A stretch of DNA of 64,000 nucleotides, from the IMG/VR virus record IMGVR_UViG_3300020213_000031; one strand, given 5' to 3'. Below, piece by piece: positions 1,658 to 56,262 of the stretch; position 1 is the stretch's first letter; each line of letters opens with the position of its first letter. Under the pieces are notes generated by a model that saw only the letters and a program-made list of their open reading frames with translations, was not told where the DNA came from and made no database searches. Position numbers and translations under genes: made by a program. This DNA is from a virus.

Positions 1658-2668
1658 ATGGGTAAGGCACGAGAGCAGCAAAATCCTAACCTTGGCCCTT
1701 ATCGAATCGAGCTTAGAGATAACAAGGGACGTTTTACCCGACTTTATTCGAAGGCACGATTTTTCAGGGCGTATTTCCAAAATAAAGCTATATCAAAGCT
1801 CCTACGCTTCCCCGATGGTTGGCTCGTCAAACAAAAACGAGCTTCTGTCGAACTTACAACTTCTCGACACACTAAGCGTTATTTTAAAAAAGAAAAAGAA
1901 GCTAAAGATCGTCGTAAGGGAAGAAAAGCTGGAAGAAAGCCCGCTGTTCGTAAGCCCAGCGTTGAGGAAGAAGCACGAGAAACAGTTGCGGAGCTACCTC
2001 GAGAACGCCCGGAGAATGTCATCCAAACGGAAGACGACGACTTCTTCTGGTCCAGAGTTGAAGCTCTCCGCGACCGACTTGAAGACATTGAGCGAATCCC
2101 TGGACAAGCATCTAAACTCATTTTTCCAATGGAAGCGTCGAGCAGGGGTGTCGCAGCCCATCCCATGAAGCGGCTGGATAAGAAGACGAACAAGTGGGTT
2201 GTCGACAGGGGAAATGTTTTTAAGCGACTTCTGAGTGGCGGGGCGAAGAAGAGGAATCTTATATGGTGGGCAGCGAAGACCTTTTTACAAAAGCTAGGAA
2301 CAAAATACTTCGAGACGGTGGCGCGTCGTACTTCCAAAAGAACTTTATCTTTCCGGGTGTTTCTAACGACAAACCTTCCAAAGCACGAGGAAGTTCTGAT
2401 GGCTCCAGCGGGAGTTCACAGCATAATTTACGATCGAGCGGTAACAAACAAAAAGCTAATGCTCGAAAGAATGACGAGCCAGTTGGTGGCAGGCATTATG
2501 CGCTCTCTCTACAAGGGCGAGGCTTATCCAGAACTGTCGCTAACGAGTTCAGGCGCATTCTTTCAGGTGATACCAGAGTCCGCGAAGTCGATTGGGAAAA
2601 GCTCGACAAAGACCCAGAACTTCAAGCTAGCCTTTACGATTTTCTTGGAAGAGGAATTCTCAAGATAA
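1658..2668 (+). CDS. basic (K/R-rich) hypothetical protein immediately upstream of and overlapping polB; terminal-protein candidate
   Basis: Positional analogy to TP genes upstream of protein-primed polB; overlaps alternative frame 1359-2168 and polB start; boundaries uncertain. Confidence 0.3.
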   Translation: MGKAREQQNPNLGPYRIELRDNKGRFTRLYSKARFFRAYFQNKAISKLLRFPDGWLVKQKRASVELTTSRHTKRYFKKEKEAKDRRKGRKAGRKPAVRKPSVEEEARETVAELPRERPENVIQTEDDDFFWSRVEALRDRLEDIERIPGQASKLIFPMEASSRGVAAHPMKRLDKKTNKWVVDRGNVFKRLLSGGAKKRNLIWWAAKTFLQKLGTKYFETVARRTSKRTLSFRVFLTTNLPKHEEVLMAPAGVHSIIYDRAVTNKKLMLERMTSQLVAGIMRSLYKGEAYPELSLTSSGAFFQVIPESAKSIGKSSTKTQNFKLAFTIFLEEEFSR

Positions 2669-8762: not shown

Positions 8763-9191
8763 TTGATGAGCAACACAACCCAAAAAATTCTCCGCTGTCT
8801 TATGATGACCCAATCAAACAACGACCACGAAGCGCTCGTCGCCGTTCGAAAGGCTAATCAATTATTAGCCGTTTGCAACTTGAATTGGGAGCAATATTTG
8901 GGTGTAGCCAAACGCATGGATGTCGATGAGCAGGAGACTCGCGATCAGCCCGATCCGGAATCAGAAAATCCTGACAACTATGAGAAGCCGACAAGAATGA
9001 GTCGCTATGACCGAACCGCCGAGATGCTCGCCCAGGTGCGCAACCACCTCGAACGCACAGGCTCACCAGCAATCGATTTTATCGCCAGCCTTGAACGTGG
9101 GCTGGCAAATTTCGGATCGCTCACCCCAGGTCAAATGGCAGCTCTTAAAAAGTTTCACAAAAACGCTACAAGGGCGCGAGCACCCTTTTGA
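8763..9191 (+). CDS. hypothetical protein
   Basis: ORF only. Confidence 0.35.
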   Translation: MMSNTTQKILRCLMMTQSNNDHEALVAVRKANQLLAVCNLNWEQYLGVAKRMDVDEQETRDQPDPESENPDNYEKPTRMSRYDRTAEMLAQVRNHLERTGSPAIDFIASLERGLANFGSLTPGQMAALKKFHKNATRARAPF

Positions 9192-9470
9192 CTTCTGCCG
9201 CCAATAGTGCAGAATAAATCAAGGAGAATGAGAATGAAATTCCAAGGTACGGAAATTTTTGATATTCAGCGAACCGCCTACGACAACCTTCGAGGCTTTT
9301 TTGGTCTCCCAGCAAAAACGGTAAGCACGATCGCCATAGCGCTCGATGCAGCCGTCATTTTTGGAATGCTGAAAGCGAGAGAGCGCGATGACGACGTAAG
9401 GGTAAGCACTGAAGTGTTGATTGCGTTGCTCGCCGACAAAACGAACAGATTGAAAAACCTGTGAGACACA

Positions 9471-10079
9471 ATGAGGAAAACACCAAAAGAAATCCGTAAA
9501 ACTTTAAAAGAGCATTATCACAAGAAAAACGGCTGCGAAGGAAAAAGAAAGTATCTTGATGAAAGCTCAGCACAGTCTCGCGCCGCTTACGACAAGCAAC
9601 GGTTCAAAGGCCACAAGCGCAAAGGCGAAGAGGCCCACAGGCCGTATCGTTGCGTTTTCTGCACCTACTGGCATATAGGCACGCCGACGAACCCAAATTA
9701 CCGTCAGGACTTCAAAGAAGTCGTGGAAAAGGCCCAGCTCATTCACGCTGGAGTCCCGATCTTTCGCCCTGAGCGCAATCTCCCTCGTCCAGACCTCTCC
9801 AGCCTCTATCTAAAAGGTTTACTAAAGAAGGAAAATTTGATTCATGGAGAATATTATATCGGATATTGCAAGTTCGCAGTCGTCGCTCGTTGGCACAGCG
9901 AAAATGGGCTATTCTACTATCAGACAGACGGGCGCGAGAATTCGCGCCCACACCCAGCGGACGATATCGGCGGAGATATATTCACCCCCGTCGACAAAAT
10001 CCAGCCAACACGAAATCAGCGCGTATATGAAGCGTTCGGGGAAGCCCATCCGATTGAAAGGCCCAGATTTAATCCCTGA
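9471..10079 (+). CDS. hypothetical protein with CxxC...H motif (PYRCVFCTYWH)
   Basis: ORF; possible zinc-binding motif. Confidence 0.4.
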   Translation: MRKTPKEIRKTLKEHYHKKNGCEGKRKYLDESSAQSRAAYDKQRFKGHKRKGEEAHRPYRCVFCTYWHIGTPTNPNYRQDFKEVVEKAQLIHAGVPIFRPERNLPRPDLSSLYLKGLLKKENLIHGEYYIGYCKFAVVARWHSENGLFYYQTDGRENSRPHPADDIGGDIFTPVDKIQPTRNQRVYEAFGEAHPIERPRFNP

Positions 10080-11470: not shown

Positions 11471-11764
11471 TTAACGCCGTTTAGCTAAGCGAGCTTCAGC
11501 TTTAATTTCTTTTCTGAACCTTTTTCCGTCAGCGGTGAGAGCGTAATACAACGCCTTGGAGCCAGGGCTTATATAGAGTTGTAGAAATTCATACTCTTCC
11601 AAAAATTGAAGATACTTACGCAGCTTCGTCATGTTCGTGTATCTAATCCCCATAGCGCTGGCTATGTTATATATCTGCGACGAACGCTTCAGCGCGAGGG
11701 AGTTAAGAACGTCGAGCAAAAAGAAAAGATTGATAGGGTAATTGTAAACTAAATGCCTTTTCAT
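11471..11764 (-). CDS. small winged-helix-like putative transcriptional regulator
   Basis: Size and helix pattern only; weak. Confidence 0.3.
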   Translation of the reverse strand: MKRHLVYNYPINLFFLLDVLNSLALKRSSQIYNIASAMGIRYTNMTKLRKYLQFLEEYEFLQLYISPGSKALYYALTADGKRFRKEIKAEARLAKRR

Positions 11765-12186
11765 TCAACATCCATGACCTTCATAAGGTCCACGCTGTCA
11801 CGCAATTCTGGGTGAGCCATTGCAGCTTTACGCATTTTGTTTACGCGAAGGAGCGCAGCGCGACCAGCCTTGACTTCTTCATAGTCGCAAGTTTTCGGGG
11901 AGCGAGCACAGAGTTTGTCGATGTTGGCTTGCATGTCAGCGAACCAGGCACCGTCAACGCAAATCATGCCGATGCGTTTTTCATCCCAGGCAGTCTTGTC
12001 GAGAAGAACGGGAGGACACTTAATAAGGTCGCACAGGGTGCGAACCCCAGTGGCGCCGAAGCGTCCTTTATCTCCCCAGGCGGTGGTATCTTTTACTTTT
12101 ATGGAGTGGGCGCCGCAGGCGGAGAGGATGCTAAGCGTTGACAACACCAGGGCGATTTTTAACCAAATCTTGTAAACGTTTTGCAT
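11761..12186 (-). CDS. lipoprotein, hypothetical
   Basis: Signal peptide + lipobox LSAC. Confidence 0.45.
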   Translation of the reverse strand: MQNVYKIWLKIALVLSTLSILSACGAHSIKVKDTTAWGDKGRFGATGVRTLCDLIKCPPVLLDKTAWDEKRIGMICVDGAWFADMQANIDKLCARSPKTCDYEEVKAGRAALLRVNKMRKAAMAHPELRDSVDLMKVMDVE

Positions 12187-12487
12187 ATTCTTTTTCCTCT
12201 TCAGGCGTGAGCGCAGGACGCGATTGAGCTTCGCGCAGCATTGTAATTTCGGGAGCGTAATGATCTTTGGCGGCTTGTGAGAGCTGATCGATCAGCGCAA
12301 CTTTGATTTCGATAACTCCATGATCGATAAGCCAGCCCACTCCCCAATCGATGACTTTTTTAATGCCATCGCCGAGGAGTGGAATTTTAAGAACGATCCC
12401 AACCAATGGAAACTGGATCGACACCGCAGCGAGCAGCGCCGGAATAATTCCACCAATAAAAATCGTTCTTAAAATTTGGCTAATCAT
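12131..12487 (-). CDS. membrane protein, hypothetical
   Basis: Multiple hydrophobic helices. Confidence 0.4.
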   Translation of the reverse strand: MISQILRTIFIGGIIPALLAAVSIQFPLVGIVLKIPLLGDGIKKVIDWGVGWLIDHGVIEIKVALIDQLSQAAKDHYAPEITMLREAQSRPALTPEEEKEYAKRLQDLVKNRPGVVNA

Positions 12488-20458: not shown

Positions 20459-22428
20459 GAGAGAAAATGATCACCACAAGAAGCGCCACAGGCAAACAAA
20501 GACGATCCTGCCGTCAGCGAAACGATAATCGTCCAATGGGTTGGCAGCCGAGCATCATGGCGAAATGGAAGTACAAGCGTTTGGAAAAAGACGTGGCGGC
20601 TGGGATTTTGCCAAAGTCTTGCCTGAACGTGACGATGAGGATTTTCGGTAAGGGTAAAAAACAGTGAGCAATCCAAGCCACGAGGTTTGGTATAAGGACC
20701 GCGATTTTCCAGAAATTAAACGTGGCGTTTATAATTCATCAGCCGATATTTTGGCGGTCGTTCCCGATGAGAAGCAGCTTCTCAATCTCGTTAACGAGCA
20801 CAACGCTGTGGTGCTTTCATGGGCTGAAGCATCTTATTCTATATCGAAAGCTATCGTCGCGTTCGAGCGGATTGCTAAAGATCAGTGGATATTAAAGAAG
20901 ACAGACTTAGTAATGATCCAAGAAATCGCCCGCGAAGCCCTCGCACGGCTCAAGGGCGACTCCTAATGGGTAAAAAGGTATGTCCATGCGATTGCTGCTC
21001 AAAGCGCCGCGATCGAGCGAAGAAGGTTTGGGAAGCCAAGATGCAGCGGCTCTTAGAGCGGGCTGGTGCGGTTGGGCTTGTCGTTTCGACTTCCAAGAAA
21101 GACAGTAAATGAGAAAGCTAATGACCAAATGTAAAAAATGCGGAACCGTCCTCGTTGGCGAGCTTCAACGCATCCAACATTTTTGCTCAAAACCAAAAAT
21201 TGACGAATGCGATAAAGAGGTTCACGTTTTCTTGGGTAAGCGAAAAACTTGTCAGTGTGGAAGGACGAGGATCGATGACTGACGCTAAAAAACAAGCCTG
21301 GGATTATTTCGCCAAGGGAAATAGATATCTATCATCTGAGGACTATTACAAAGAGAATCCAGAAAAATCTGACGTTTATCGAGCCTACTTGGCTGGTCAT
21401 GAATCCACGATGGAAAGAATTCGTGCGCTAGAGGAAGCGCTCAAGTTTTACGCCGACAAGCAACACATCGTCGAAGTAAACACCGAGCAAGAGTACAGCT
21501 TGAGGGTTGAAGATGGAATGAAAGCTCGAACTGTTTTGGGCGTGCCGTCATGAGCGAATTGCAGAAGAGAGAACCTGGACGATACGGCCCACGCATTTTC
21601 ACAAATGCTAACTTTGTGCAGCTCTCACGTCAAACGGGAACGTGGTCACTCAAGAGGAATGGCGACAATGGGTTCGAATACGTTTCAGAGAGCGAATACA
21701 GTCTGGCTCGGTCGCGGGCGAGTTTTAGGGAGAGGAATCTTGAAACTAAAAATTCCAAGCTAAAGAGCTTGATTCAAGAGGCGCATAGAGTATTCTCTAA
21801 CGCACCAGATGGCTGGACGAATACGCATAGCGATTGGCTGATTCACGATTTGGCGAAAATTGAAGCTGAGCACCGAGTGGAGGAAGAATGAAACTTCGAT
21901 GGTACGTCGTTGAAACGGATTACGGCCCCTCATACATGAAGCCAGCATGGCCCAAGTCGATGAGCCGTGGTAAACCTCATCAGCAATTTCACCATACCCA
22001 GCCTCGCCTTCAGTATAAAGACAAAGGCAAGTCGATGTGGACGGACGTTCCAACCGTTGTGAAAAAAGTAAAGAGCGACAGGGGTGAAGGAATATGAGAA
22101 CCGACAAAAGAATCGCTCGATTGAATTTATGGAGGCGTCCAAATGATGGAAGAATCAAAAGAGTTCAAAGAAAAGGTCAGCTCAAATACCTGGCACAAAA
22201 ATTTCGATGAGGTCGTTGTATTCATCAAGCAAGCGACGAATGAGGAGCCATACGAATCTGACGGCAATACATTGAAACCCGGATGTGTTGATTGGAGATG
22301 GGCGAGGAACATGGAATGTAAATACATTTCTTTAAGAATCGATATGCGAGACGGTGGATTTATTTTGTGTGACAAATCTGGGAATCGGATCAGCCTTGAT
22401 CGATTGAAGTGGCAATATAGGAGCAAAG

Positions 22429-22881: not shown

Positions 22882-23709
22882 ATGGGTGACGCTAACGGAA
22901 ACAAATATGAGAAAATAGACTTACCGAAGGAACCGGCTAAAGCCCCTGTTCCCACAGCACCAGTTAAACCTGGTGAGAAGCCGGAAGATCCGAGCGTGAG
23001 AGTTCTCGGCATCGACGTAGCGAAATACCAGGACAAGCTAGATCCCACAGAGTGGGCGAAGCTTTACGCGAAGGGCTACCGCTTTGTGTTCGCCAAGGCC
23101 ACGGATGGGAAGGCTGGATTGGATTCGTATTACAGCTACCATCGCAAGAACGCGAAAGCAGCGGGGTTCCTGGTCGGGGCCTATCATTTCCTGCGTTACG
23201 GATACACGGCTGAGGAGCAAGCATCTCACCATTTCAAAACAGCCGGAAGGGTATCAGGAGAACTCCCGAGCGTCCTTGACGTTGAGTGGGATCGTTACAC
23301 CCTCGACCAAAAGTACGGCAGCGACAAGCGCATGGACAAATGGGCCGAGAATCACGCCAAGAAGTACGTTGAAACCTTGATGCTACTCAACGGCGGAAAG
23401 AAACCAATCATATATACCAATGCGTACTTTTGGCCGGAGAAGTGTTCCTTCCCGGAATTCTGGAGCCAATTTCTCGTGTGGGTTCCCTCTTACTCCGACT
23501 CCCTCAACCCAGGAGGCAAGCACGTACTGGCTGACCTATCCCCTGCGGAAATCGCAAAAGCTGGCGCTGGTGTGAAAATTCCTAGTGGATGGAAGCAATG
23601 GAACTTTTGGCAAGACGACGACGATTTGGCGATTGGCGATGTGAAGGCGATTGACACCAACGTGTTTCGCGGATCGCTCGAAGACCTGCGAAAGATGGCA
23701 AATGCCTAA
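22882..23709 (+). CDS. GH25-family lysozyme (muramidase), endolysin candidate
   Basis: GIDVAKYQ...FAKATDGKAGLDSYY...GAYHF pattern. Confidence 0.7.
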   Translation: MGDANGNKYEKIDLPKEPAKAPVPTAPVKPGEKPEDPSVRVLGIDVAKYQDKLDPTEWAKLYAKGYRFVFAKATDGKAGLDSYYSYHRKNAKAAGFLVGAYHFLRYGYTAEEQASHHFKTAGRVSGELPSVLDVEWDRYTLDQKYGSDKRMDKWAENHAKKYVETLMLLNGGKKPIIYTNAYFWPEKCSFPEFWSQFLVWVPSYSDSLNPGGKHVLADLSPAEIAKAGAGVKIPSGWKQWNFWQDDDDLAIGDVKAIDTNVFRGSLEDLRKMANA

Positions 23710-24268
23710 AACTCACATGATGACCAATACAAGGGTTCATCGAATTTGGAGGGCGATGCTTTCCCGCTGTCGTAATCCCAAAACCATCAACTACAAACAC
23801 TACGGAGGTAGGGGCATCCGCGTCTGCAAGCGGTGGGAGAAATTCGAGAACTTCTTCGCCGACATGGGGCACCCGCCAGAGAGCCACAGTCTAGATAGAA
23901 TAAATTCAAACGGAAACTATGAGGCCAGAAATTGTCGGCGGTCAAGTCAGATTGAACAGGTGCGGAATACCAATAAAACCATTCGACTTACAATTAACGG
24001 AGCAACAAAGCCGATGGCAGAGTGGTGCCAAGAGCGCGGGATCAGCTACGGCGCAGCCATTAGGAGGCTCCGGAAAGGCTTGTCACATAGTGCGGTACTT
24101 TCTCCATCTCGATTGCCCATGTCAAAGACCAAGAAGCGGCTGATAAGCGACGAACAAATGAAAGAAGTTAGGACGAGGCGTGCGGCGGGTGAAACGCTTG
24201 CGAGCATCGGCGCATCTTTCAACGTGAAGAAGGATCACATTTGGGCGCGACTAAAGGACTCCCCATGA
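23702..24268 (+). CDS. HNH-like homing endonuclease / AP2-type DNA-binding protein
   Basis: YKHYGGRGIRVCKRW..FENFFADMG...LDRINSNGNY...NCR pattern common to phage HNH endonucleases. Confidence 0.5.
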   Translation: MPKTHMMTNTRVHRIWRAMLSRCRNPKTINYKHYGGRGIRVCKRWEKFENFFADMGHPPESHSLDRINSNGNYEARNCRRSSQIEQVRNTNKTIRLTINGATKPMAEWCQERGISYGAAIRRLRKGLSHSAVLSPSRLPMSKTKKRLISDEQMKEVRTRRAAGETLASIGASFNVKKDHIWARLKDSP

Positions 24269-25079
24269 CCGAAGACAAACTACTCTATCATTTCCAAAAG
24301 GGCGGCGAGAAATGATCTGGAATTCCATTAAGTCCATTTTCTGGTGTGGGGTTTTTCACAAGTTCAAACCTTGCATGGATTTGGGCTATCCGGACATTGC
24401 TCCAACGAAAAGTGATATTGGGCAAGATTGCTTGTGCGCAGTTTGCGGGACCACATACGAGGTAACAGGATGAACGTTTCCATCTGCAAATCCTGCCACC
24501 AACAAATCGACGCGGGCGACAAGCACGAGTGCCCGCTTGCCGCTCGCAACGATGACAAGTTTGCAACTCTTCGCTTGGGTGTACTGGGTGTTGAAAAATC
24601 CGCTCAGCGAAGATCAAGAAGATATGGCAAAATCTATCAATAATCTTTTTGCGCTTCTCGGAACGCGGGAAGCGGAAATAAAGAAGCTCAAAGAAAAACT
24701 GGCGAGGGTTGGCACAACCACTTGCTCGCATGGAACGCCGACGAGCGAAAGGTGTGAGATGCTCATGATGGCTTGTTTAGTTCTTGTTGCTGTGGGGCTG
24801 TGGTTCATTCGCGAAGAGCGGAGGATGAAATGAGCATGATGGGTGAAGCCATAGCGTCTGAAAATTTTGACATAATGAAGTTTAGGCTAGAGCGAGCAGA
24901 AGCGGTCATCGCTGAAATGGAGCGAGCCGCGCTTTCAAGAATCGTGTGGCTTAAAGACTGTAGAGACGCGGGCTATTCGAATATGGAAGGCGCCGACAGT
25001 AAAGAGTTTATCTATTGGGAAAAGTGGGCTGAAAATTGCGCTGCCGAGGTTCAAAAGGAAAATAAATCACTCGAGATTC

Positions 25080-25583
25080 TTGCTGAGTACAGGAGAGGTA
25101 AATGATTTCATTCGCCCCATTGACAAACCTTTTCGAGGTGCCATAATGGATGTATGCAATATTGAATCAAATTTAATTTCATCGCAATTCCCGGAGGCAA
25201 GGCTTCCTGGAAACCTCCCTAGTCGAATGGTGCCCCGAAAGATCGGAAAGCTCAACCATTCACCACTAGAGGAAAATATGAAAAGATTCAAAACCCTGTT
25301 CGACATGAAACTCGAACTCAAAGCTCTCGCCGCTCAAATCAAAAAAGACAAAGAACCTCCACGCTCTCAGCATACTCGCGCCATGTTTGAGTTTAGACAT
25401 TTACACGTCGCAAGATGCCTTCTTAAAGGTCGCACGATGCTGGAGATCGAGGGGTCGGACACAAACCGTAAAAGTAAGCGCGACGAAAAATATCTGGCAA
25501 AGCTTTTGGAAAAGTGGACGCCGCTCCACGAGGCCGAGCAAATTGCCTGGAAGGCCGCTAATCTTGAAATGGTGACGGCATGA
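25080..25583 (+). CDS. hypothetical protein
   Basis: ORF only. Confidence 0.35.
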   Translation: MLSTGEVNDFIRPIDKPFRGAIMDVCNIESNLISSQFPEARLPGNLPSRMVPRKIGKLNHSPLEENMKRFKTLFDMKLELKALAAQIKKDKEPPRSQHTRAMFEFRHLHVARCLLKGRTMLEIEGSDTNRKSKRDEKYLAKLLEKWTPLHEAEQIAWKAANLEMVTA

Positions 25584-25876
25584 CGACCGAGCGGTATTCT
25601 GGATACAAATTGTTCGTCATTGTCGACGCCTTCCTTGACCGCTCCCAGCAGGCCGTCCAAGCTCTTCACGCAGCGGTAAAGTTCTGCCTTGACCACCCGG
25701 ACGTGGCAAAAAATAAATGGGGAAACCAAAACGTTGTAATCAAGAAAGCAAAAGATTTTGAACGCTGGGCGTCAGAATCCGATGCCATCTTTGTCGAACC
25801 CTATTGGGATAATAAACAGACCGCCTGTGTCGCCTTTCGCCCGGAAGGTTATGCGGAGGAACTGCCCCTTATTTAA
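25580..25876 (+). CDS. hypothetical protein
   Basis: ATGA overlap with upstream ORF. Confidence 0.35.
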   Translation: MTTERYSGYKLFVIVDAFLDRSQQAVQALHAAVKFCLDHPDVAKNKWGNQNVVIKKAKDFERWASESDAIFVEPYWDNKQTACVAFRPEGYAEELPLI

Positions 25877-25968
25877 ATTTTGCTGTGGTGCTCGGCAGTA
25901 GTGATACCGAGTTAAATGATTTACTCAGATAAAGATCAAAAACACACCAGCCTCAGCAATTCAATTTC

Positions 25969-26045
25969 GGCCCAGTAGCTCAGATGGTCAGAGCGGCTGT
26001 TTTCAACTCAGTGCGTCGCGGATTCGAATTCCGCCTGGGCCTCCA
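25969..26045 (+). tRNA. tRNA with anticodon UCA (opal/UGA-reading; tRNA-Sup or Trp/other-UCA), CCA encoded
   Basis: Perfect 7-bp acceptor GGCCCAG/CTGGGCC, D-arm GCTC-AGATGGTCA-GAGC, anticodon loop TTTCAAC (U33, A37), T-arm GCGGA-TTCGAAT-TCCGC, discriminator U, CCA. Confidence 0.8.
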
Positions 26046-26166
26046 TTTAACTCTGAGCGTCAATGCTCAGCAATTTTCTCAGTCACCACTTGCTTTTTCC
26101 TCAGTCGATGCCATCCTCTTTCTCAGAGAAGCATACAGCTTCTTTTTCAATAGGAAACCCTCCAAC

Positions 26167-27924
26167 ATGACGCAAAGACGCACCATTTCCGACGAACGCG
26201 ATGAAAAACGCTCCCTGGCGCATCTCCAGGCCACCCTGGACAGCGAAGAAGGCGAACTTGACGACCTGGATTACACCGAGGAAGAGGCTGAAGAGGCTCT
26301 AAAACCTGACCCCGTGGCGGTCAAAGCTGAACGCGGCATGGAAGAATTGTCTGTAGAGCAAATTATTGCCCGAGCAGAGTCCTCGGAAGAGTGGGATATC
26401 TTCGAAGACATCGGCGCCCACCTCGTTTCACGCGGCGATCAGGTCAAGTATTCGGTAAAACTGAACGGAGAACATCGGGCAACCATCCCTCATCCCTGTT
26501 CCTACGATTGGCTTCAGAAAAAATACGGTGGCGGCTCATACCACGTCACCCTTCGTTCCTACCTTTTTTCGAAAAAAGCAGGCGGCGGATACCTCAAATC
26601 GCAGTCCAAAATGGTCGCCAACCCAGCCGACGATGAAGCCGACGCCGACGCTCCACTTCCTACAACCCTCGCGGGCGTCATGCCAGCGCCAGAAAAGGCG
26701 GCCTCCCCCGTGGAAATGCTCTCCATCCTGCAATCGATGAACGAAAAAGCGCGTTCCGAGCAACGAGCTGAGATGGAACGCATTCGCGAGGAGAACCGGC
26801 TTCGAGAGGAGAGGCTTGAACGTGAAGCAAAGTCCAGAGAAGAACGTCTCGAGCGGGAAGCCAAGGAACGCGAATCGAAACGCGAGTCTGAAGGCTCTTC
26901 CACGATGATGATGCTCATGAAATTCATGGAGCAATCCAGCGTAGCCGCACGCGAAGCAGCCAATCGCCAGAATGAAATGCTGATCGCGCTCCTCACAAAG
27001 TCGCCGCCTCCAGAGCGAGAAGACAAAAAAACCGACAAACTCTTCGACATGCTTCTCGGTGTGATGCTCGACAAGAAAGCAAAAGGCGATTCTCTCGATC
27101 CGTTGGAACTTCAGAAGTTGCTCAGCGCCGCAGAGGATAAGGGGTATTCCCGAGCGAAAGAAATTCGTGAGCTTGCGCAAGAAGAAGCCGCACGCCTCTC
27201 CGCTCGTATGGGTGGTAAGGATGACGACGAGGATGACGAAGACGAAGAGCCAAAAGAGAAGTCGACGACCAAAATGCTTCTCGAAACCATCGCTCCGATG
27301 ATTTCGCAGTTTGCTCAAGGTGCGGCTCAGGCGCAAGCGCAGCCGCAGCCGGTTCGCAGAGCCTTGCCGCCTCAAATGCGTCGCCCGCTCCCCGCTCCCG
27401 GCCCGAATCCCAATATGCCAGCCAGACCCCCCGCCGCGCCCGCCGCTCCAGCCAGACTGCAAGCGGCGCCCGCTGGTGAGCATCCTGTAAAGGCTGCAAC
27501 TAATCCAGTGCAGCCCCAAAGACAAAGCCTCAACCAAGTAATGAACCAATCAAAACCGCAAGCGGTGAAAGCGACTATGAAGCCGACGAAGAAAGAAATT
27601 GTCTCCGAGACTGTAGTAAACAAGATCACGGCAGACCTGACTGCCAATTTCCTGACCGGAGGATACGATCCGGAGAAAACAGCGGACGCCGCGCTTGCGA
27701 GCTTGGCCGACTACAAGTTTGACGATGGAGCGAAAATTGACGCTGCTTGGCTTCTGACCAACTTCACGCTGGATGAAATGAAAGCTGTAGCCAAGGCCAA
27801 AGGAATGCCGGAAGCCATCAATGCCTACCTGGAGCGCTTCTACGAGCGCGTAAAGTACATTGAAGGCGCTCAAAAGATCCTTGAGGGTGGATCGCAGCCT
27901 GCCAGCACGCCAGATTCCGTCTAG
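26167..27924 (+). CDS. acidic, coiled-coil, Pro/Ala-rich virion-module protein (scaffold/internal-protein candidate)
   Basis: First gene of late module; REERLEREAK repeats, D/E-rich and PA-rich low-complexity segments. Confidence 0.45.
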   Translation: MTQRRTISDERDEKRSLAHLQATLDSEEGELDDLDYTEEEAEEALKPDPVAVKAERGMEELSVEQIIARAESSEEWDIFEDIGAHLVSRGDQVKYSVKLNGEHRATIPHPCSYDWLQKKYGGGSYHVTLRSYLFSKKAGGGYLKSQSKMVANPADDEADADAPLPTTLAGVMPAPEKAASPVEMLSILQSMNEKARSEQRAEMERIREENRLREERLEREAKSREERLEREAKERESKRESEGSSTMMMLMKFMEQSSVAAREAANRQNEMLIALLTKSPPPEREDKKTDKLFDMLLGVMLDKKAKGDSLDPLELQKLLSAAEDKGYSRAKEIRELAQEEAARLSARMGGKDDDEDDEDEEPKEKSTTKMLLETIAPMISQFAQGAAQAQAQPQPVRRALPPQMRRPLPAPGPNPNMPARPPAAPAAPARLQAAPAGEHPVKAATNPVQPQRQSLNQVMNQSKPQAVKATMKPTKKEIVSETVVNKITADLTANFLTGGYDPEKTADAALASLADYKFDDGAKIDAAWLLTNFTLDEMKAVAKAKGMPEAINAYLERFYERVKYIEGAQKILEGGSQPASTPDSV

Positions 27925-27976
27925 GCATAAGAAAAAGATCGTGTGAAAATAGGTGGAGGAGTGAATCATTGCCCTA

Positions 27977-28624
27977 TTGATTTGCTCCTTTACTCGCCCC
28001 GAGTTCATCCGGCTTTTCGCCGAGACCGGCAGGGGCGGCTCGGAGTATCCGTTGCCTATTTTACAATTGAAGCCGCAATGGGAGCTGGGTGCGCTCCCTT
28101 CAACTCAATCGACAGAGCTTTCCTCTTCCGATAGAGGCAATTACGAGACTGTCGAAATCATGCGCCGTAAAGCGCGAGAGAACTCTTCGCACCCGCTTGT
28201 GCGCGGCCTTGCGCTGAAAGTCCTGGAGCAATCCGGAGTCAAATCCCACAATTTTGTTGACGAAGCGAAAGCTTTGGCCGAGTTCATCCAAAAAGAAGTG
28301 CGCTACGTTCGTGACACTAACGACGTTGAACAGCTCCATGATCCTGTTTACATGATCCGTAGAATTATTGAGGGCACCGCTCAAGGCGACTGCGACGACA
28401 TGGCTCTCATCCTTGTCACGCTTCTCTTGTCTGTAGGCCACCAGCCGTATTTCGCCATCGTTCGCTACCGCGAGGTGGCCGGACCATTCAACCATATTTA
28501 TGTAGTTGAATACGATCGCAACTGGGGTGGCGCAAAGAAGCGTATCGTTATGGATACCATCCTGAAAGATCGCCCCATCGGAACAGAGGTTCCACACAAA
28601 TCTAAGATGGAGATCAAGGTATGA
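27977..28624 (+). CDS. transglutaminase-like cysteine protease fold protein (maturation protease candidate)
   Basis: GDCDDMAL...GH...D pattern (Cys-His-Asp); true start may be downstream. Confidence 0.4.
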   Translation: MICSFTRPEFIRLFAETGRGGSEYPLPILQLKPQWELGALPSTQSTELSSSDRGNYETVEIMRRKARENSSHPLVRGLALKVLEQSGVKSHNFVDEAKALAEFIQKEVRYVRDTNDVEQLHDPVYMIRRIIEGTAQGDCDDMALILVTLLLSVGHQPYFAIVRYREVAGPFNHIYVVEYDRNWGGAKKRIVMDTILKDRPIGTEVPHKSKMEIKV

Positions 28625-28884
28625 GTGAAATTGAATTGCGATTCAATCCACAGCTTGGCACTTGGTACAATCCGCTTACTTGGTACGGGAAAGAAAGCTC
28701 ACCAGCGCCTCAAGTTCAAACAAAGCCCGCCGTTGACGACTTTTTTGCTCCAGGCGAAGAAAAGAAAATGGAGCAGCTTATACGCGAAAAACTTATCGCG
28801 GAATGGCGCCACAATTTAATGCTTGCCGCCGCAGGCGCGGGGTTTGCGCTTGTGCTTATACTTTTGTTTAGGAAGAAAAAATGA
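28621..28884 (+). CDS. small C-terminal-TM membrane protein
   Basis: ATGA overlap; C-terminal hydrophobic helix. Confidence 0.4.
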   Translation: MSEIELRFNPQLGTWYNPLTWYGKESSPAPQVQTKPAVDDFFAPGEEKKMEQLIREKLIAEWRHNLMLAAAGAGFALVLILLFRKKK

Positions 28885-29585
28885 ATCCTTTATTCTTGAT
28901 CGGCGGAGTAGCTGCCGCCTCTTATATGTTGAACGAATCTTCTCCTTCTACAGCGAAAGCCGACAATCGCGACCAAGGCTTGACCAATCAAGACAGCTCC
29001 GATCCTCTTCCTTGGGATTCAATCATCAAGGGGACTATCGCGGTCGTTGCCGCTGGCGCCGTGCTGAAATCTTTTGGTGGAAGGCAGTTGCCCGATACTT
29101 TTGATCGCGCCGGAAGGTCTGAGGGAGCGTTAGCGTTTAGGGAACTCTCAGCAAAGGTTCCGTCGATGAGCAGGATTACAGAACTCGAACAAGTTTATGA
29201 AGCCAATCAACAAAAATACGCTCCATCGATCACGAGTGTTTTTGAAGAAGTTGCGGCGGCAAGAGATGCAGCATCTCAGGCACGATGGGTCGCTGAACAA
29301 GAATCTGATCGTCTCTGGCGCCAGCGTCTTGAATTGGCTGAAATTGAGAAGCAGCGCGAATATAAACGCCAAGCAGATATCCGGGAAGCGCAATACCAAA
29401 TGCGAGAAGCCGTGAAGCAGGCGAAGCCTATGTCCTATAAAGAATATCAAGTCTCTTCGTTCGACAGCAAAAAACCAACAACGACCGCAAGCGCAAGCGG
29501 GATAACGGGTAAGACGAGCAGCCAAAAGCTCGATTCTTCGGGGCCAACTCAAAAAATTCAGCGCATTGTACTCAAGAGGGGATGA
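28881..29585 (+). CDS. N-terminal-TM coiled-coil membrane protein
   Basis: ATGA overlap; N-terminal TM. Confidence 0.4.
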   Translation: MNPLFLIGGVAAASYMLNESSPSTAKADNRDQGLTNQDSSDPLPWDSIIKGTIAVVAAGAVLKSFGGRQLPDTFDRAGRSEGALAFRELSAKVPSMSRITELEQVYEANQQKYAPSITSVFEEVAAARDAASQARWVAEQESDRLWRQRLELAEIEKQREYKRQADIREAQYQMREAVKQAKPMSYKEYQVSSFDSKKPTTTASASGITGKTSSQKLDSSGPTQKIQRIVLKRG

Positions 29586-29800
29586 TGAAAAACTTCGGCA
29601 CCATTTCTCAAGAGCAAGTAATCTCAACCGGAGCTGAGGCCGTTCAGGCGATTCAGTCGGCGTCTGATGAATCGTCCGCGTTTGTACAACAAGCGGCGGT
29701 CCACCCCGACCAGATAGCGGAGAACGCCAAGAAAATGAGTGTTCTCGGCTGGGTCGTTACGCTGTACACTCTCAACTGGTTTAGAAAGATGATTTTTTAG
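29582..29800 (+). CDS. small C-terminal-TM membrane protein
   Basis: ATGA overlap; TM helix. Confidence 0.4.
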   Translation: MMKNFGTISQEQVISTGAEAVQAIQSASDESSAFVQQAAVHPDQIAENAKKMSVLGWVVTLYTLNWFRKMIF

Positions 29801-29809
29801 GAGCAAGCG

Positions 29810-30244
29810 ATGCAATATGTAGTGCAAAACGGAGACACGCTCTCCGCCATTTCTCAAAAGTTTTACGGTTCGCCCAGCTATTACAGGGCGATCGTTGCCG
29901 CCAATCCAATTATTCAGAACGAGAATCTGATCCAAATTGGCTGGATGCTCGAAATTCCTGGCTCCGAATTGCTCGGTCCAATTCGCCCCGGCGACCCGAC
30001 GATGCGTCCGCCTGGAGTATCTTCAGGCTTCACGCCTTCACCATCGCCTTCTCCACAACCGCTTCCTTCGCCGTATGGCCCCGGAACCGTATTGCAGCCA
30101 ACACCAGCGCAAGAGTCGAAAACTAAACTTTATTTGCTCATTGCTGCCGCCCTTGTTGGTGGTTTCTTCATTGTGCAGTATCTTTCAAAACAACAGGCAG
30201 CTCCTAAAGAGAAGCCAACCGAACCGCAGGCGGAGGCCGTATGA
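29810..30244 (+). CDS. LysM-domain protein with Pro-rich linker and C-terminal TM anchor
   Basis: YVVQNGDTLSAISQKFYG...IVAANP LysM signature; TM LYLLIAAALVGGFFIV. Confidence 0.65.
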   Translation: MQYVVQNGDTLSAISQKFYGSPSYYRAIVAANPIIQNENLIQIGWMLEIPGSELLGPIRPGDPTMRPPGVSSGFTPSPSPSPQPLPSPYGPGTVLQPTPAQESKTKLYLLIAAALVGGFFIVQYLSKQQAAPKEKPTEPQAEAV

Positions 30245-53924: not shown

Positions 53925-54370
53925 AATGGTGTACCCGGCGAGAATCGAACTCGCGTCCTAAAGTTTTTTCATTCTACAGTCGACATGTTTTTGCGCCCAA
54001 GGCGACACCGAAGTGTCGGGTGGAGATTAAAATCTAGGGGTCTTTCAACCCCCAGACCAGGGCGACCGATTTCTCGGCCACCTCCACCAACCAGATTCTT
54101 ACGATAAGCTCTGGCAAGCTCCCTGCACTTTCCTTCTTGCGAAGTGGACTGCACTACCATTTTTGCCTTTCTTCTTTAACTGGCGCTCAGGCGGCACCAC
54201 AGTCTTCCGTTTTTAGGCGGCGAACTGAAGAGCCGTAGCATTGCTGCCACGGTTCTTGCGAATCACGAAAGATTCAGCATTTACATTTGCGTCCAGATGA
54301 TAACTCAACAAGTACGCCTCTGAGACATGCAGTAGAATTTCCAAACTCCAGTCGAAACCAATTCGGGCAC
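53925..54370 (-). ncRNA. ssrA: tmRNA (ssrA)
   Basis: 5' GUGCCCGAAUUGGUUUCGACUGG and 3' GGACGCGAGUUCGAUUCUCGCCGGGUACACCA match the tmRNA tRNA-like domain; acceptor GUGCCCG/CGGGUAC pairs; internal ORF ending ...ALQFAA-stop. Confidence 0.85.
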
Positions 54371-54610
54371 TTTTAAAATCAACTGAAGAGAGAAGTACCG
54401 GCTGCTCTTAACGCTGGGCCAGCGCAGAGCTTGGCTTGACTCGCATTAATCTTGTACTTCAAAAACCGAACTCTCAAATTGCCTCGATCGACCACCTGCC
54501 GGTCCTCGACCAAACCAACTGCAAGCACTTCTTCTCTCCTCAATTCATTTCAAAATCGTCTAAACACCATTAACATTTCCAAAAAAATAAGCAAGAAATA
54601 TTTCTTACTT

Positions 54611-54889
54611 TTATTCGCTCCCACCACTCGGCGGCTCGATGAAGACGCCCGACTCGCCCTCTATCTCTGTAATCTTTTTTCTACAATAAATACACAGTCT
54701 AATTTTTTTCGTCGCCATGATCCACTTCTTACAATCCGGCCCTAAGCATTGTTTCCTTTTCTCCGGATCGCCCTCGGCGAAGGAAACAAATTGGTGCTTT
54801 TCGACATTTCTCCGATTGCGTTGTTTCAACATCATTCTGGCTAGGATAAGCCATGCAGTGAAACTGTCAACGATTTTGTTGCTTTTCAA
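54611..54889 (-). CDS. zinc-ribbon hypothetical protein
   Basis: CLGPDC...CIYC motif. Confidence 0.35.
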   Translation of the reverse strand: MKSNKIVDSFTAWLILARMMLKQRNRRNVEKHQFVSFAEGDPEKRKQCLGPDCKKWIMATKKIRLCIYCRKKITEIEGESGVFIEPPSGGSE

Positions 54890-56047: not shown

Positions 56048-56262
56048 TCGGAATATCCGCTCAGGTAGTCGCTGATGGACTTGATGTTTCGGATGGAAAT
56101 CGAAAGTTTCTTGCGATGCTCTGGGTCTGGCAACGAATCGACAAACGTGGACAGATCATCTTGAATGTGCTTTAGTTTTTTGTGCTCTTTGATTTGTTTG
56201 AAGTAAAGCAAATTCATGGTCAAACACCAATACCAATTCTGTTAGCCGATGCAAGCAAAATT

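What the first reader, a model, noticed from the sequence alone, without database searches (positions are those of the whole stretch)
25969..26045. Phage-encoded tRNA with anticodon UCA (opal suppressor) placed at the head of the late/virion operon
The sequence folds into a textbook cloverleaf. It has a perfect 7-bp acceptor stem, a canonical D-arm and T-arm (TTCGAAT), U33 and A37, discriminator U and an encoded CCA. The only anticodon-loop register compatible with these constraints gives 5'-UCA-3', which decodes UGA. TGA is nonetheless used as an ordinary stop throughout the window, including many ATGA gene overlaps, so genome-wide recoding is not supported. The tRNA could therefore be a targeted readthrough or anti-host device, a Trp/Cys-derived UGA reader, or a marker of a host lineage that reads UGA as sense. 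Its position, 120 nt upstream of the first late gene, matches the late-expressed suppressor tRNAs of stop-codon-recoded phages.
Basis: partly seen in the sequence, partly recalled or inferred. Interest (0 to 1): 0.8.

Follow-up and report, generated by a model that had tools for sequence, protein, structure and literature searches.

The report
Opal-suppressor tRNA in PTH2-linked phage cassette
A phage that uses the normal genetic code carries a genuine tRNA that reads the UGA stop codon, and it forms a conserved three-gene cassette with a peptidyl-tRNA-hydrolase-like gene that also sits beside stop-codon tRNAs in other phages, including the recoded Lak megaphages.

Summary
Window 25969-26045 (+) is a real tRNA with anticodon UCA, called by both ARAGORN and Rfam (60.5 bits), and it is the only tRNA in the window. 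It is not a selenocysteine tRNA.

The phage uses the standard code. TGA ends 36% of ORFs, I found no in-frame TGA, and TGA is not depleted.

The placement idea is only partly right. The conserved partner is the upstream gene pair: a helical ~100-aa protein (25278-25583) and a PTH2-like peptidyl-tRNA hydrolase homologue (25580-25876). A terminator-like hairpin follows the tRNA, and a unique conserved motif lies beyond it, before the virion operon.

This cassette recurs in 9 lineages on at least two phage backbones. It always carries a stop-reading tRNA: UCA in 4, CUA in 4, and an 8-nt loop containing CUA in 1. More distant PTH2-like genes in Lak megaphages, huge phages and Tenacibaculum phage pT24 also lie within 2.6 kb of tta or cta tRNAs.

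Most likely the tRNA is a weak, host-charged UGA suppressor. The hydrolase and a phage tmRNA (53927-54370) would then clear its by-products. What the readthrough is for remains unresolved.

Suppressor tRNAs in standard-code phages are already reported. I found no paper describing the link to PTH2.

The parts
25278..25583 (+). First cassette gene: a ~100-aa all-helical protein with the invariant motif E(F/Y)RHLH(I/V)ARCL..GR. Its stop overlaps the next gene's start (ATGA). Function unknown.
   Evidence: It is present directly upstream of the PTH2-like gene in all 9 lineages (alignment A6). It has 71 homologues and no Pfam domain. The AlphaFold model has pLDDT 90 and shows a helical bundle with no informative PDB match.
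25580..25876 (+). Second cassette gene: a 98-aa divergent PTH2-like homologue of the archaeo-eukaryotic type of peptidyl-tRNA hydrolase.
   Evidence: A profile search reaches many PF01981 (PTH2) proteins at E 5e-9 to 1e-4. The top PDB sequence hit is PTH2 from A. fulgidus (1rzw/3erj, E 0.11). The AlphaFold model has pLDDT 95. The nine best Foldseek PDB hits are all PTH2 structures (1q7s, 2zv3, 3erj, 1rlk, 1rzw), with probability 0.87-1.0. Q27, H30, W47, E73 and T81 are invariant. The position aligned with the Lys of the PTH2 'GK' motif is Gln here.
25969..26045 (+). tRNA with anticodon UCA (opal-suppressor type): 7/5 acceptor/T stems, 5-nt variable loop, discriminator U, encoded CCA, and weak anticodon stem ends (G27.U43 and U31.U39).
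   Evidence: Syntenic orthologues were found in L001-L006, L009 and L020. Covariation is shown.
26053..26080 (+). Terminator-like hairpin (CTGAGCGTCAATGCTCAG) followed by CAATTTTCTC. It probably marks the 3' end of the cassette transcript.
   Evidence: It was found by the terminator scan and folds at -8.7 kcal/mol. Stronger equivalents sit directly after the tRNA in L020 (19-bp stem plus U tract, z = -7.9) and in L003 (z = -2.6).
26089..26128 (+). Conserved motif CTTGCTTTTTCCTCAG followed by ...CCATCCTCTTTCTCAG, upstream of the first virion-operon gene. It is a candidate late promoter or operator.
   Evidence: It is conserved in the window, L003 and L009, and is present in L007. Its only exact or near-exact occurrence in the 64 kb is here.
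26167..27924 (+). First gene of the long co-directional structural operon (585 aa, coiled-coil and Pro-rich, no Pfam or PHROG hit). This is context, not part of the cassette.
   Evidence: The downstream genes include LysM proteins and a tail-fibre-like domain.
53927..54370 (-). Phage-encoded tmRNA with predicted tag AESFVIRKNRGSNATALQFAA*. It is a possible functional partner, rescuing ribosomes that read through to the ends of mRNAs.
   Evidence: Rfam RF00023 matches at 67.2 bits, E 5e-24. The tag frame 54278-54213 was translated. ARAGORN did not call it.

Best explanation
Shown: window 25969-26045 is a genuine tRNA under structural selection, and its anticodon UCA pairs with the UGA stop codon. 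It is the last element of a mobile three-gene cassette: a small helical protein, a PTH2-like peptidyl-tRNA hydrolase homologue, and a stop-codon-reading tRNA. The cassette is carried by a novel ~68-kb phage with a protein-primed DNA polymerase, and this phage uses the standard genetic code.

Inferred:
- The tRNA is co-transcribed with the two upstream genes and released by RNase P and 3' processing.
- It is charged by a host synthetase. Trp is the least harmful choice, because an unmodified U34 would also read UGG.
- It competes with release factor 2 at UGA and gives partial readthrough, not complete readthrough. The phage ends about a third of its own genes in TGA and shows no backup-stop adaptation, and the tRNA's anticodon stem is weakened.
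- The PTH2-like enzyme would recycle peptidyl- or N-blocked aminoacyl-tRNA that falls off ribosomes.
- The phage tmRNA would rescue ribosomes that run to the ends of mRNAs.
- Together they form a kit for tampering with termination at one release-factor-specific stop codon: UGA here and UAG in sister lineages.

The tRNA is not used to decode recoded genes in this phage. The pay-off is not established. It could be host-directed readthrough, insurance against release-factor limitation or attack, or counter-defence.
For: - tRNA identity and register.
- Structure under selection: 14 of 19 pairs show compensatory changes across 8 loci.
- Synteny: a tca tRNA sits at the same place in relatives whose neighbouring 585-aa protein is only 45-65% identical.
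- Anticodon switching: sister lineages carry cta at the same slot (L007, L008, L012-L019, L021). L023 has an 8-nt loop containing CUA.
- Cassette conservation: all 9 lineages that have the PTH2-like gene also have the helical partner and a stop-reading tRNA. L010 and L011 have none of the three.
- Spacing: the first tRNA or tRNA-like gene starts 8-10 nt after the PTH2-like stop in most loci (coordinates).
- PTH2 assignment.
- Wider association: more distant PTH2-like genes lie within 2.6 kb of tta or cta tRNAs in Lak-B7, Lak-A2, LR756500, LR745208, pT24, L025 and L026.
- Standard code: there is no in-frame TGA by coding-potential scan or by colinearity with relatives. TGA makes up 36-39% of stops.
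- No backup-stop selection.
- Terminators after the tRNA.
- tmRNA.
- Literature: standard-code phages Atu_ph07 (UCA, 267 TGA stops) and XacN1 (CUA) carry target-less suppressor tRNAs and also Pth genes (PMC6102473, PMC5852040). PTH2 and tmRNA accompany tRNA arrays in cluster C mycobacteriophages (PMC5966550).
Against: - Nothing here shows expression, aminoacylation or actual readthrough.
- The discriminator base varies among orthologues (U, G, U, A, G), so the charging enzyme is unclear.
- The PTH2-like subfamily has Gln where canonical PTH2 has the Lys of the GK motif, so hydrolase activity is not assured.
- L003 keeps the tRNA without an adjacent PTH2-like gene.
- Some more distant PTH2-like loci (RAS14, Ahp1, LR745206, L024) have no stop-reading tRNA within 5 kb.
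- Efficient suppression would extend about a third of the phage's own proteins by a median of 46 codons. A benefit of readthrough is therefore not obvious.
- About 4 kb of the contig lies outside the window, and small genes escape the in-frame-stop scan.
Confidence: 0.6

Rival explanations
1. Decoy or non-ribosomal substrate. The cassette's tRNAs are not meant to decode anything. They would be tRNA-shaped substrates, sponges or amino-acid donors for the PTH2-like enzyme, or decoys for host toxins that target tRNA. A stop anticodon would be tolerated simply because it cannot misread sense codons.
For: In L006, L021 and L023 the slot 8-9 nt after the PTH2-like gene holds tRNA-like genes that cannot decode. 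One has a 4-bp stem and a GCAA tetraloop in place of the anticodon arm (L021 871-937). Others carry insertions of about 27-85 nt in the anticodon arm, and one has an 8-nt loop. The anticodon-stem ends are weak in the UCA tRNAs. The catalytic Lys of PTH2 is replaced.
Against: All ten seven-nt anticodon loops are fully canonical (U33, purine 37) and carry an exact stop anticodon. D and T loops are intact, and CCA is encoded in most. These features are needed for ribosomal decoding but not for a decoy. In the more distant loci sense tRNAs also occur nearby.
Confidence: 0.13
2. Evolutionary stepping-stone. The tRNA is a recently acquired, nearly neutral suppressor that precedes TGA-to-sense recoding, as proposed for a standard-code Agate phage.
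For: Borges et al. (bioRxiv 10.1101/2021.08.26.457843) describe a standard-code phage with a TGA suppressor tRNA next to recoded relatives. The cassette's PTH2-like gene has homologues beside tta tRNAs in TAG-recoded Lak megaphages.
Against: The tRNA is kept at the same place, with compensatory substitutions, in lineages as far apart as 45% protein identity. That argues for long-term function. The precondition of the model is absent: GC is 49% and TGA is the second most used stop at 36-39%. No relative examined shows in-frame cognate stops.
Confidence: 0.1
3. Targeted decoding. One or a few phage genes contain an in-frame TGA, or need a TGA-readthrough extension. These could lie outside the window, be very short, or belong to a satellite element. 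The tRNA would act as a timing switch for them.
For: This is the established role of suppressor tRNAs in recoded phages. About 4 kb of the 67,993-bp contig was not seen. The scan needs 50 clean codons on each side of a stop.
Against: No TGA in 64 kb has coding potential on both sides, apart from gene junctions and one strain-specific frameshift. Gene order and gene sizes are colinear with relatives. Readthrough extensions after TGA are neither conserved in length nor matched by TAG in the cta lineages. The cassette moves between unrelated backbones, so a fixed cis target is unlikely.
Confidence: 0.08
4. Release-factor-independent termination or rescue. The stop-reading tRNA accepts the finished chain at UGA (or at UAG in sister phages). 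The peptidyl-tRNA is then released and hydrolysed by the PTH2-like enzyme with help from the helical protein. This would allow termination when RF2 or RF1 is limiting or has been inactivated.
For: The close family has only RF-specific stop anticodons: UCA in 5 lineages (the four cassette lineages plus L003) and CUA in 4, with no UUA. The tRNA is genetically coupled to a peptidyl-tRNA hydrolase fold. The cognate stop remains in heavy use as a terminator. The anticodon stems are weak.
Against: From general knowledge, long nascent chains do not readily drop off ribosomes. tta tRNAs occur beside the more distant PTH2-like genes. No biochemical precedent was found in the literature searches.
Confidence: 0.07
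5. Genuine selenocysteine tRNA (as ARAGORN labels it), a host tRNA fragment, or an attP remnant.
For: The ARAGORN label 'tRNA-SeC'.
Against: It has a 7/5 acceptor/T architecture and a 5-nt variable loop, not the 8/5 architecture with a long extra arm. It is complete and carries CCA. It is conserved with covariation inside phage genomes. No selA, selB or SECIS context was seen among the proteins scanned.
Confidence: 0.01

Closest known systems
Orphan suppressor tRNAs of standard-code jumbo phages (Agrobacterium phage Atu_ph07, tRNA-Sup UCA; Xanthomonas phage XacN1, two tRNA-Sup CUA)
   Same: Each is a phage-encoded tRNA with a stop anticodon in a genome that uses the cognate stop abundantly (267 TGA stops in Atu_ph07). 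No readthrough target was found. Both phages also encode peptidyl-tRNA hydrolases (PMC6102473 and PMC5852040). XacN1 also has a member of the same PTH2-like subfamily.
   Different: Those tRNAs are one or two among 33-56 tRNAs in genomes of about 385 kb (XacN1) or more, and they are not reported as linked to the hydrolase. Here the suppressor is the only tRNA of a ~68-kb phage and is fixed in a three-gene cassette.
Suppressor tRNAs and 'code-change modules' of stop-codon-recoded phages (Lak, crAss-like, Agate, Jade; Borges et al.)
   Same: Both involve a phage tRNA that reads a stop codon. The Jade module clusters the tRNA with translation factors (aaRS, RF). The PTH2-like gene of this cassette has homologues 0.6-0.7 kb from tta tRNAs in Lak-B7 and Lak-A2.
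   Different: This phage has no in-frame TGA and no depletion of TGA stops, and its GC content is 49% rather than low. The partner genes are a PTH2-like protein and an unknown helical protein, not an aaRS or RF. That preprint does not mention a hydrolase.
tRNA-array units with PTH2-like hydrolase and tmRNA in cluster C mycobacteriophages; PTH2 in jumbo phages (Iyer et al. 2021)
   Same: Phages co-encode PTH2-type hydrolase, tRNAs and tmRNA as translation or ribosome-rescue equipment (PMC5966550 and PMC7824862).
   Different: Those arrays consist of sense tRNAs, and no specific link to stop-reading tRNAs is described.
Laboratory and natural opal suppressors derived from tRNA-Trp (anticodon UCA), as in E. 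coli suppressor strains and Mycoplasma or mitochondrial tRNA-Trp (from general knowledge)
   Same: They share the anticodon UCA, A37, and a class I tRNA body with a short variable loop.
   Different: The discriminator is U here, whereas bacterial tRNA-Trp has G73, and it varies among orthologues. There is no significant similarity to E. coli tRNA-Trp. The nearest E. coli tRNA is a tRNA-Arg at 74% identity, E 0.6.
tRNA-Sec (selC)
   Same: Only the anticodon UCA.
   Different: This tRNA lacks the 8/5 acceptor/T architecture, the long extra arm and the 6-bp D stem.

Membership tests
tRNA (Rfam RF00005) | Cloverleaf that scores above the curated covariance-model threshold | tested here: met
   60.5 bits against a gathering score of 29. 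ARAGORN makes the same call.
tRNA (Rfam RF00005) | Base pairs maintained by compensatory substitutions in homologues | tested here: met
   14 of 19 pairs show double compensatory changes across 8 loci.
Nonsense (opal) suppressor tRNA | 7-nt anticodon loop with U33, purine 37 and an anticodon complementary to UGA | tested here: met
   Loop UUUCAAC gives anticodon UCA in the only register found by two programs.
Nonsense (opal) suppressor tRNA | Aminoacylated and able to insert an amino acid at UGA in vivo | not testable with these tools
   This needs reporter assays, acid-gel Northern blots or mass spectrometry. The isotype is unresolved: the discriminator varies and the nearest E. coli tRNA match is not significant.
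Suppressor tRNA of a stop-codon-recoded (code 4) phage | In-frame TGA codons inside conserved phage genes | tested here: not met
   No TGA has coding potential on both sides, apart from gene junctions and one frameshift variant. Gene order is colinear with relatives.
Suppressor tRNA of a stop-codon-recoded (code 4) phage | Cognate stop codon rare as a terminator, and low GC content | tested here: not met
   TGA ends 34 of 95 ORFs in the window and 39% of ORFs across the tca phages. GC is 0.49.
tRNA-Sec | 8/5 (bacterial) acceptor/T stems, long variable arm, 6-bp D stem | tested here: not met
   The stems are 7/5, the variable loop is 5 nt and the D stem is 4 bp.
Theta (HDV-like) ribozyme-associated phage suppressor tRNA | HDV-like ribozyme directly 3' of the tRNA | tested here: not met
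   A permissive Rfam scan of 25800-26250 finds only the tRNA and chance-level hits. CCA is encoded and a plain hairpin follows.
PTH2 peptidyl-tRNA hydrolase (PF01981), for the neighbouring gene 25580-25876 | Sequence-profile relationship to PF01981 members | tested here: met
   The profile of 5 orthologues reaches about 20 PF01981-annotated proteins at E 5.6e-9 to 9e-4. Direct Pfam scans of single sequences are negative.
PTH2 peptidyl-tRNA hydrolase (PF01981), for the neighbouring gene 25580-25876 | PTH2 alpha/beta fold | tested here: met
   The model has pLDDT 95. Foldseek hits 1-9 are all PTH2 structures, with TM 0.51-0.65 and probability 0.87-1.0.
PTH2 peptidyl-tRNA hydrolase (PF01981), for the neighbouring gene 25580-25876 | Conserved catalytic residues and hydrolase activity | tested here: inconclusive
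   The AxQxxHA helix is conserved, but the Lys of the 'GK' motif aligns with Gln. Which residues are catalytic is taken from memory of the S. solfataricus work. Activity was not tested.
tmRNA (RF00023), for 53927-54370 | tRNA-like domain plus a tag reading frame ending in a hydrophobic-Ala-Ala sequence | tested here: met
   67.2 bits against a gathering score of 47. The tag is AESFVIRKNRGSNATALQFAA*.

The most novel reading that the evidence does not exclude
The helical protein, the PTH2-like protein and the stop-codon tRNA form a dedicated, mobile system for handling stop codons. In this reading the PTH2-like family is the general companion of phage suppressor tRNAs, in standard-code phages and in recoded megaphages alike. 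It would either make suppression tolerable or form a release-factor-independent route for ending or rescuing translation at one specific stop codon. The odd tRNA-like genes in the same slot (tetraloop, insertions, 8-nt loop) would be further substrates of that system.
Probability: 0.25. Interest if true: 0.85.

Novelty: new variant of a known kind. Interest (0 to 1): 0.62.

Why it matters
Suppressor tRNAs in phages are usually read as tools or forerunners of genetic-code change. Their presence in standard-code phages such as Atu_ph07 and XacN1 has had no explanation. In this family the suppressor has been kept for a long time. It switches between UGA and UAG specificity. It coexists with heavy use of the same stop codon. 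It is also genetically tied to a PTH2-like hydrolase and an unknown helical protein. Homologues of the hydrolase sit beside stop-reading tRNAs in Lak megaphages and other huge phages.

If the link is functional, it points to a missing protein component of phage stop-codon suppression or code switching. It also gives a compact three-gene cassette, plus a tmRNA, that can be tested directly in a reporter strain. The cassette could be useful for engineering controlled readthrough.

Tried and rejected
- **Known-phage similarity.** Megablast of 24000-30000 against 50,697 phage records gave no match. A sensitive blastn of the tRNA region hit only a tRNA-sized stretch in a Morganella phage.
- **IMG/VR.** Scans for the 585-aa protein and for the PTH2-like protein found nothing.
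- **Protein families for the virion-operon proteins.** PHROGs and Pfam were almost entirely negative.
- **Code-4 tblastn.** I searched TGA-containing frames against relatives. The output was swamped by off-frame similarity to real genes, so I abandoned it for a coding-potential scan.
- **Best scan candidates.** The top candidates, TGA at 22095 and 22122, come from a 1-nt GGG/GGGG difference from the near-identical contigs L001 and L002. They are not readthrough sites.
- **Same-frame ORFs.** Three consecutive TGA-terminated ORFs in one frame (8763-10079) and the pair 61827-62768 look like separate genes or non-coding sequence when translated.
- **Readthrough extensions.** Extensions after TGA stops in the late operon are neither conserved among relatives nor replaced by TAG in the cta lineages.
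- **Stop usage.** I found no depletion of the cognate stop and no selection for nearby backup stops.
- **Ribozyme.** There is no HDV-like or theta ribozyme next to the tRNA.
- **Helical partner protein.** It has no Pfam hit, PDB sequence hit or fold match. The ORF beside the Lak PTH2-like gene is not detectably related to it.
- **L003.** The 88-aa gene upstream of its tRNA is not PTH2-like.
- **Isotype.** Assignment by similarity to E. coli tRNAs was not significant.
- **Other translation genes.** No release factor, aaRS or SmpB turned up among about 65 window proteins scanned.
- **Host.** The genome-collection scan returned only three MAG contigs (Deltaproteobacteria, Desulfobacteraceae, unclassified) holding more distant PTH2-like genes. 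The host remains unknown.
Full report
**1. The observation**

ARAGORN finds a single tRNA in the 64-kb window, at 25969-26045 on the + strand, with anticodon tca. Rfam's tRNA covariance model matches the same stretch in the same register at 60.5 bits, against a gathering score of 29. The sequence shows these features:
- a 7-bp acceptor stem
- a 4-bp D stem with G18 G19
- anticodon loop UUUCAAC, giving U33, anticodon UCA and A37
- a 5-nt variable loop
- T loop TTCGAAT
- discriminator U and an encoded CCA

The anticodon stem is weak: pair 27:43 is G.U and pair 31:39 is U.U, so the folding programs keep only 3-4 pairs there. ARAGORN's 'SeC' label reflects only the anticodon. The 7/5 stem architecture and short variable loop exclude a selenocysteine tRNA.

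**2. The genome around it**

The window is a very poorly characterised phage.
- It has a protein-primed family B DNA polymerase (2263-4644) and a GH25 lysozyme (22882-23709).
- It also has M15 peptidase, Band-7, metallophosphatase and phosphatase-like genes.
- A long co-directional operon starts at 26167. It contains LysM proteins and a tail-fibre-like domain, and otherwise has no PHROG or Pfam matches.
- It has no DNA-level relative among 50,697 phage records or in IMG/VR.
- The 585-aa protein just downstream of the tRNA has only 12 homologues among 5.8 billion proteins.

**3. The genetic code**

The phage uses the standard code.
- TGA ends 34 of 95 ORFs of at least 80 aa (TAA 38, TAG 23), including several ATGA overlaps.
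- I trained a codon-usage scan on the long ORFs. It finds no TGA with coding potential on both sides, apart from gene junctions and one site (22095/22122). That site is a 1-nt homopolymer difference from near-identical contigs, not readthrough.
- Gene order and gene sizes from about 16 to 38 kb are colinear with seven relatives.
- The cognate stop is not avoided. TGA is 39% of stops in the tca-bearing phages, and TAG is 27% in the cta-bearing phages against 25% in the others.
- There is no sign of backup stops. The median distance to the next non-TGA stop is 46 codons after TGA-terminated genes and 36 codons after other genes (p = 0.58).
- Genome-wide or late-gene recoding is therefore excluded for this window.
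- The preconditions of the published 'stop-codon depletion, then suppressor, then recoding' route (Borges et al.) are absent. GC content is 49%.

**4. Relatives**

I fetched contigs that encode homologues of the 585-aa protein. The tRNA sits at the same place in lineages whose neighbouring protein is only 45-65% identical. The anticodon is tca in L003-L006 and L009, but cta (amber) in L007. Two lineages (L010, L011) have no tRNA. In L008 the cta tRNA lies 1.3 kb upstream of the 585-aa gene and is still directly behind the same small upstream gene.

RNAalifold on eight of these tRNAs gives a cloverleaf in which 14 of 19 pairs show compensatory double substitutions. Only three anticodon-stem pairs are conserved. 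These are therefore functional tRNAs whose anticodon is kept as a stop anticodon while it switches between UGA and UAG specificity.

**5. The real linkage is to the upstream genes**

The two genes upstream of the tRNA (25278-25583 and 25580-25876) accompany it in L006-L009. They are missing from the tRNA-less L010 and L011.

The 98-aa protein is a divergent PTH2-type peptidyl-tRNA hydrolase homologue:
- A profile of five orthologues has PTH2 of A. fulgidus as its top PDB hit (E 0.11).
- The same profile reaches many PF01981-annotated proteins at E 5.6e-9 to 1e-4.
- An AlphaFold model has pLDDT 95.
- The nine best Foldseek PDB matches are all PTH2 structures.
- The subfamily keeps the AxQxxHA helix, but has Gln where canonical PTH2 has the Lys of the GK motif. 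Hydrolase activity is therefore plausible but not assured.

The ~100-aa partner has an invariant E(F/Y)RHLH..RCL..GR motif. It is present in every cassette. It is a confident helical bundle with no recognisable relatives by Pfam, PDB sequence search or fold search.

**6. The cassette is mobile and always carries a stop-reading tRNA**

I searched metagenomes for the PTH2-like protein and looked up contigs of its homologues. This gave further lineages:
- L020 (tca) is on the same backbone as this phage.
- L012 and L013 (cta) are short contigs close to L007.
- L014-L019 (cta) are on a different backbone with a 2,092-aa polyvalent protein. The tRNA there is of a different type and has no encoded CCA.
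- L021 (cta) and L023 are on yet other backbones.

In total, 9 of 9 lineages with the close PTH2-like family also have the helical partner and a stop-reading tRNA within 350 nt. The count is UCA in 4, CUA in 4, and in L023 an 8-nt loop GCCCUAAC that contains CUA. In most loci the first tRNA gene starts 8-10 nt after the PTH2-like stop codon. The spacing is 37 nt in L007 and 92 nt in this window. L003 is the one exception in the other direction: it has the tRNA without the two proteins.

**7. Transcription unit**

A terminator-like hairpin follows the tRNA in this window (26053-26070 plus a U-rich tail). A 19-bp hairpin with a U tract follows it in L020 (z = -7.9), and a long hairpin follows it in L003 (z = -2.6). 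Beyond the hairpin lies the motif CTTGCTTTTTCCTCAG. It is conserved in relatives and occurs only here in the 64 kb. It is a good candidate for the late-operon control region. The tRNA is thus best read as the 3'-terminal gene of the cassette transcript, not as the leader of the virion operon.

**8. The wider family**

By tblastn against 50,697 phage records, the window's protein hits only TAG-recoded Lak megaphages. A more central family member hits 26 records: 15 Lak phages, huge uncultured phages, XacN1, Xoo-sp13, Stenotrophomonas phages CM1 and RAS14, Aeromonas phage Ahp1 and Tenacibaculum phage pT24.

I examined eight of these loci with 5-6 kb of flank on each side. Five have a stop-anticodon tRNA within 2.6 kb:

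| Locus | Anticodon | Distance from the PTH2-like gene |
|---|---|---|
| Lak-B7 | tta | 0.6 kb |
| Lak-A2 | tta | 0.7 kb |
| LR756500 | cta | 0.8 kb |
| LR745208 | tta | 0.14 kb |
| pT24 | cta (annotated tRNA-Sup) | 2.5 kb |

RAS14, Ahp1 and LR745206 have none in range. Of three MAG contigs with more distant homologues, two have cta tRNAs within 1 kb.

I did not compute a formal background rate. The published surveys I read treat suppressor tRNAs in standard-code phages as exceptions, so 16 of 20 loci is a striking association.

**9. Other translation equipment**

The window also encodes a tmRNA (53927-54370, minus strand; Rfam 67.2 bits, E 5e-24). Its tag frame is plausible and ends in ...ALQFAA. 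No release factor, aminoacyl-tRNA synthetase or SmpB was detected among about 65 proteins scanned.

From general knowledge, readthrough caused by suppressor tRNAs sends ribosomes to the 3' ends of mRNAs, where tmRNA rescues them. Pth and tmRNA functions are physiologically connected in E. coli (Singh and Varshney 2004, cited in PMC5966550).

**10. How it most likely works**

Shown:
- It is a canonical tRNA under structural selection, with a stop anticodon.
- It is tightly linked to a PTH2-fold protein and a helical protein.
- The genome uses the standard code and uses TGA stops heavily.

Inferred:
- The tRNA is co-transcribed with the two genes and charged by a host enzyme. Trp is the least damaging choice, because an unmodified U34 would also read UGG. 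However, the discriminator varies (U, G, U, A, G), and similarity to E. coli tRNAs is uninformative.
- It acts as a partial UGA suppressor in competition with RF2.
- The PTH2-like enzyme and the tmRNA deal with dropped-off peptidyl-tRNA and non-stop ribosomes.
- Suppression must be weak or transient, because otherwise about a third of the phage's proteins would be extended.

The benefit is open. Candidates are host-directed readthrough, insurance against limitation or inactivation of one release factor, and counter-defence. The rival explanations (decoy or non-ribosomal substrate, stepping-stone to recoding, hidden target gene, RF-independent termination) are listed with their tests.

**11. 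Comparison with what is known**

Suppressor tRNAs without a target in standard-code phages are already on record:
- Atu_ph07 has a UCA tRNA and 267 TGA stops (PMC6102473).
- XacN1 has two CUA tRNAs (PMC5852040).
- A standard-code Agate phage has a TGA suppressor tRNA.

PTH2 genes in jumbo phages, and PTH2-like genes with tmRNA in mycobacteriophage tRNA arrays, are also known. I found no report of a specific, conserved coupling of a PTH2-like gene and a helical partner to stop-reading tRNAs in the searchable literature. That search covers open-access papers and preprints only.

**12. Verdict**

The tRNA is real and is an opal-suppressor type. The 'late-operon leader' and 'recoding' readings are not supported. 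The interesting result is the cassette. I rate it a new variant of a known kind, with interest 0.62. There is a 25% chance that the cassette is a dedicated stop-codon-handling system of broader importance for phage code switching.

Noticed in passing
window 53927-54370 (-): A phage-encoded tmRNA: Rfam 67.2 bits, 444 nt, predicted tag AESFVIRKNRGSNATALQFAA*. ARAGORN did not detect it. The 1.9 kb beside it (54400-56300) contains only tiny ORFs.
   Followed up: partly
window 51832-52878 (-): A 348-aa ORF matches a PHROG transposase family (phrog_506, E 6.5e-66). It lies about 1 kb from the tmRNA gene, inside the phage genome.
   Followed up: no
L006 9309-9406 and 9420-9520; L021 871-937 and ~981-1143; L023 1021-1104, ~1112-1240 and 1249-1327: Relatives carry unusual tRNA-like genes in the slot directly after the PTH2-like gene. 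Their acceptor, D and T arms are intact, but the anticodon arm is altered. In one it is replaced by a 4-bp stem with a GCAA tetraloop. In others it is interrupted by insertions of about 27-85 nt. One has an 8-nt loop, GCCCUAAC. None matches a known ribozyme or intron family at Rfam thresholds.
   Followed up: partly
window 26089-26128 (+): The motif CTTGCTTTTTCCTCAG, followed by a second ...TTTCTCAG box, is unique in the 64 kb. It is conserved upstream of the first virion gene in L003, L009 and L007. L006 and L007 have a different repeated box there (CATCTAGCG / CTATCTAGTGGAG). These are probably late-promoter or regulator sites. CTCAGCAATT also flanks the tRNA as a 10-nt direct repeat (25952 and 26066).
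   Followed up: partly
window 22080-22084: The window has GGGG where the near-identical contigs L001 and L002 have GGG. This shortens a small gene (21889-22146, 85 aa) to 69 aa. It is either a strain variant or an assembly error in a homopolymer.
   Followed up: yes
window 2263-4644 (+) and the whole window: A protein-primed type B DNA polymerase (PF03175, E 5e-29) sits in a ~68-kb phage whose structural genes have almost no PHROG or Pfam matches. The phage has no relatives in INPHARED or IMG/VR, so it appears to be an undescribed lineage. The contigs come from JGI metagenomes 3300020057 and 3300015360.
   Followed up: partly
L027 (Lak-B7 MK250026.1 345556-346512) and L034 (Lak-A2): In the TAG-recoded Lak megaphages, a tRNA with anticodon tta lies 0.6-0.7 kb upstream of a homologue of the PTH2-like gene. 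In Lak-B7, the locus where I listed ORFs, an unrelated 127-aa ORF lies between them.
   Followed up: partly
window 8763-9191, 9207-9464, 9471-10079 (+): Three consecutive ORFs share one reading frame. Each ends in TGA and is separated from the next by 15 and 6 nt. Each has its own start and they read as separate proteins, so this is probably coincidence.
   Followed up: yes
window 12131-12487 (-): A 118-aa ORF has a borderline hit to sigma-70 region 1.2 (PF00140, 22.4 bits against a cut-off of 22). It may be a fragment of a phage sigma-like factor. The following ORF, 11761-12186, has no hit.
   Followed up: no
window 61112-61813 (+), 56547-58301 (+): Beyond the tmRNA lie a GP88-family protein (PF17338, E 1.5e-42) and a 584-aa protein with a DUF5661 domain. 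These show that the phage genome continues on that side.
   Followed up: no
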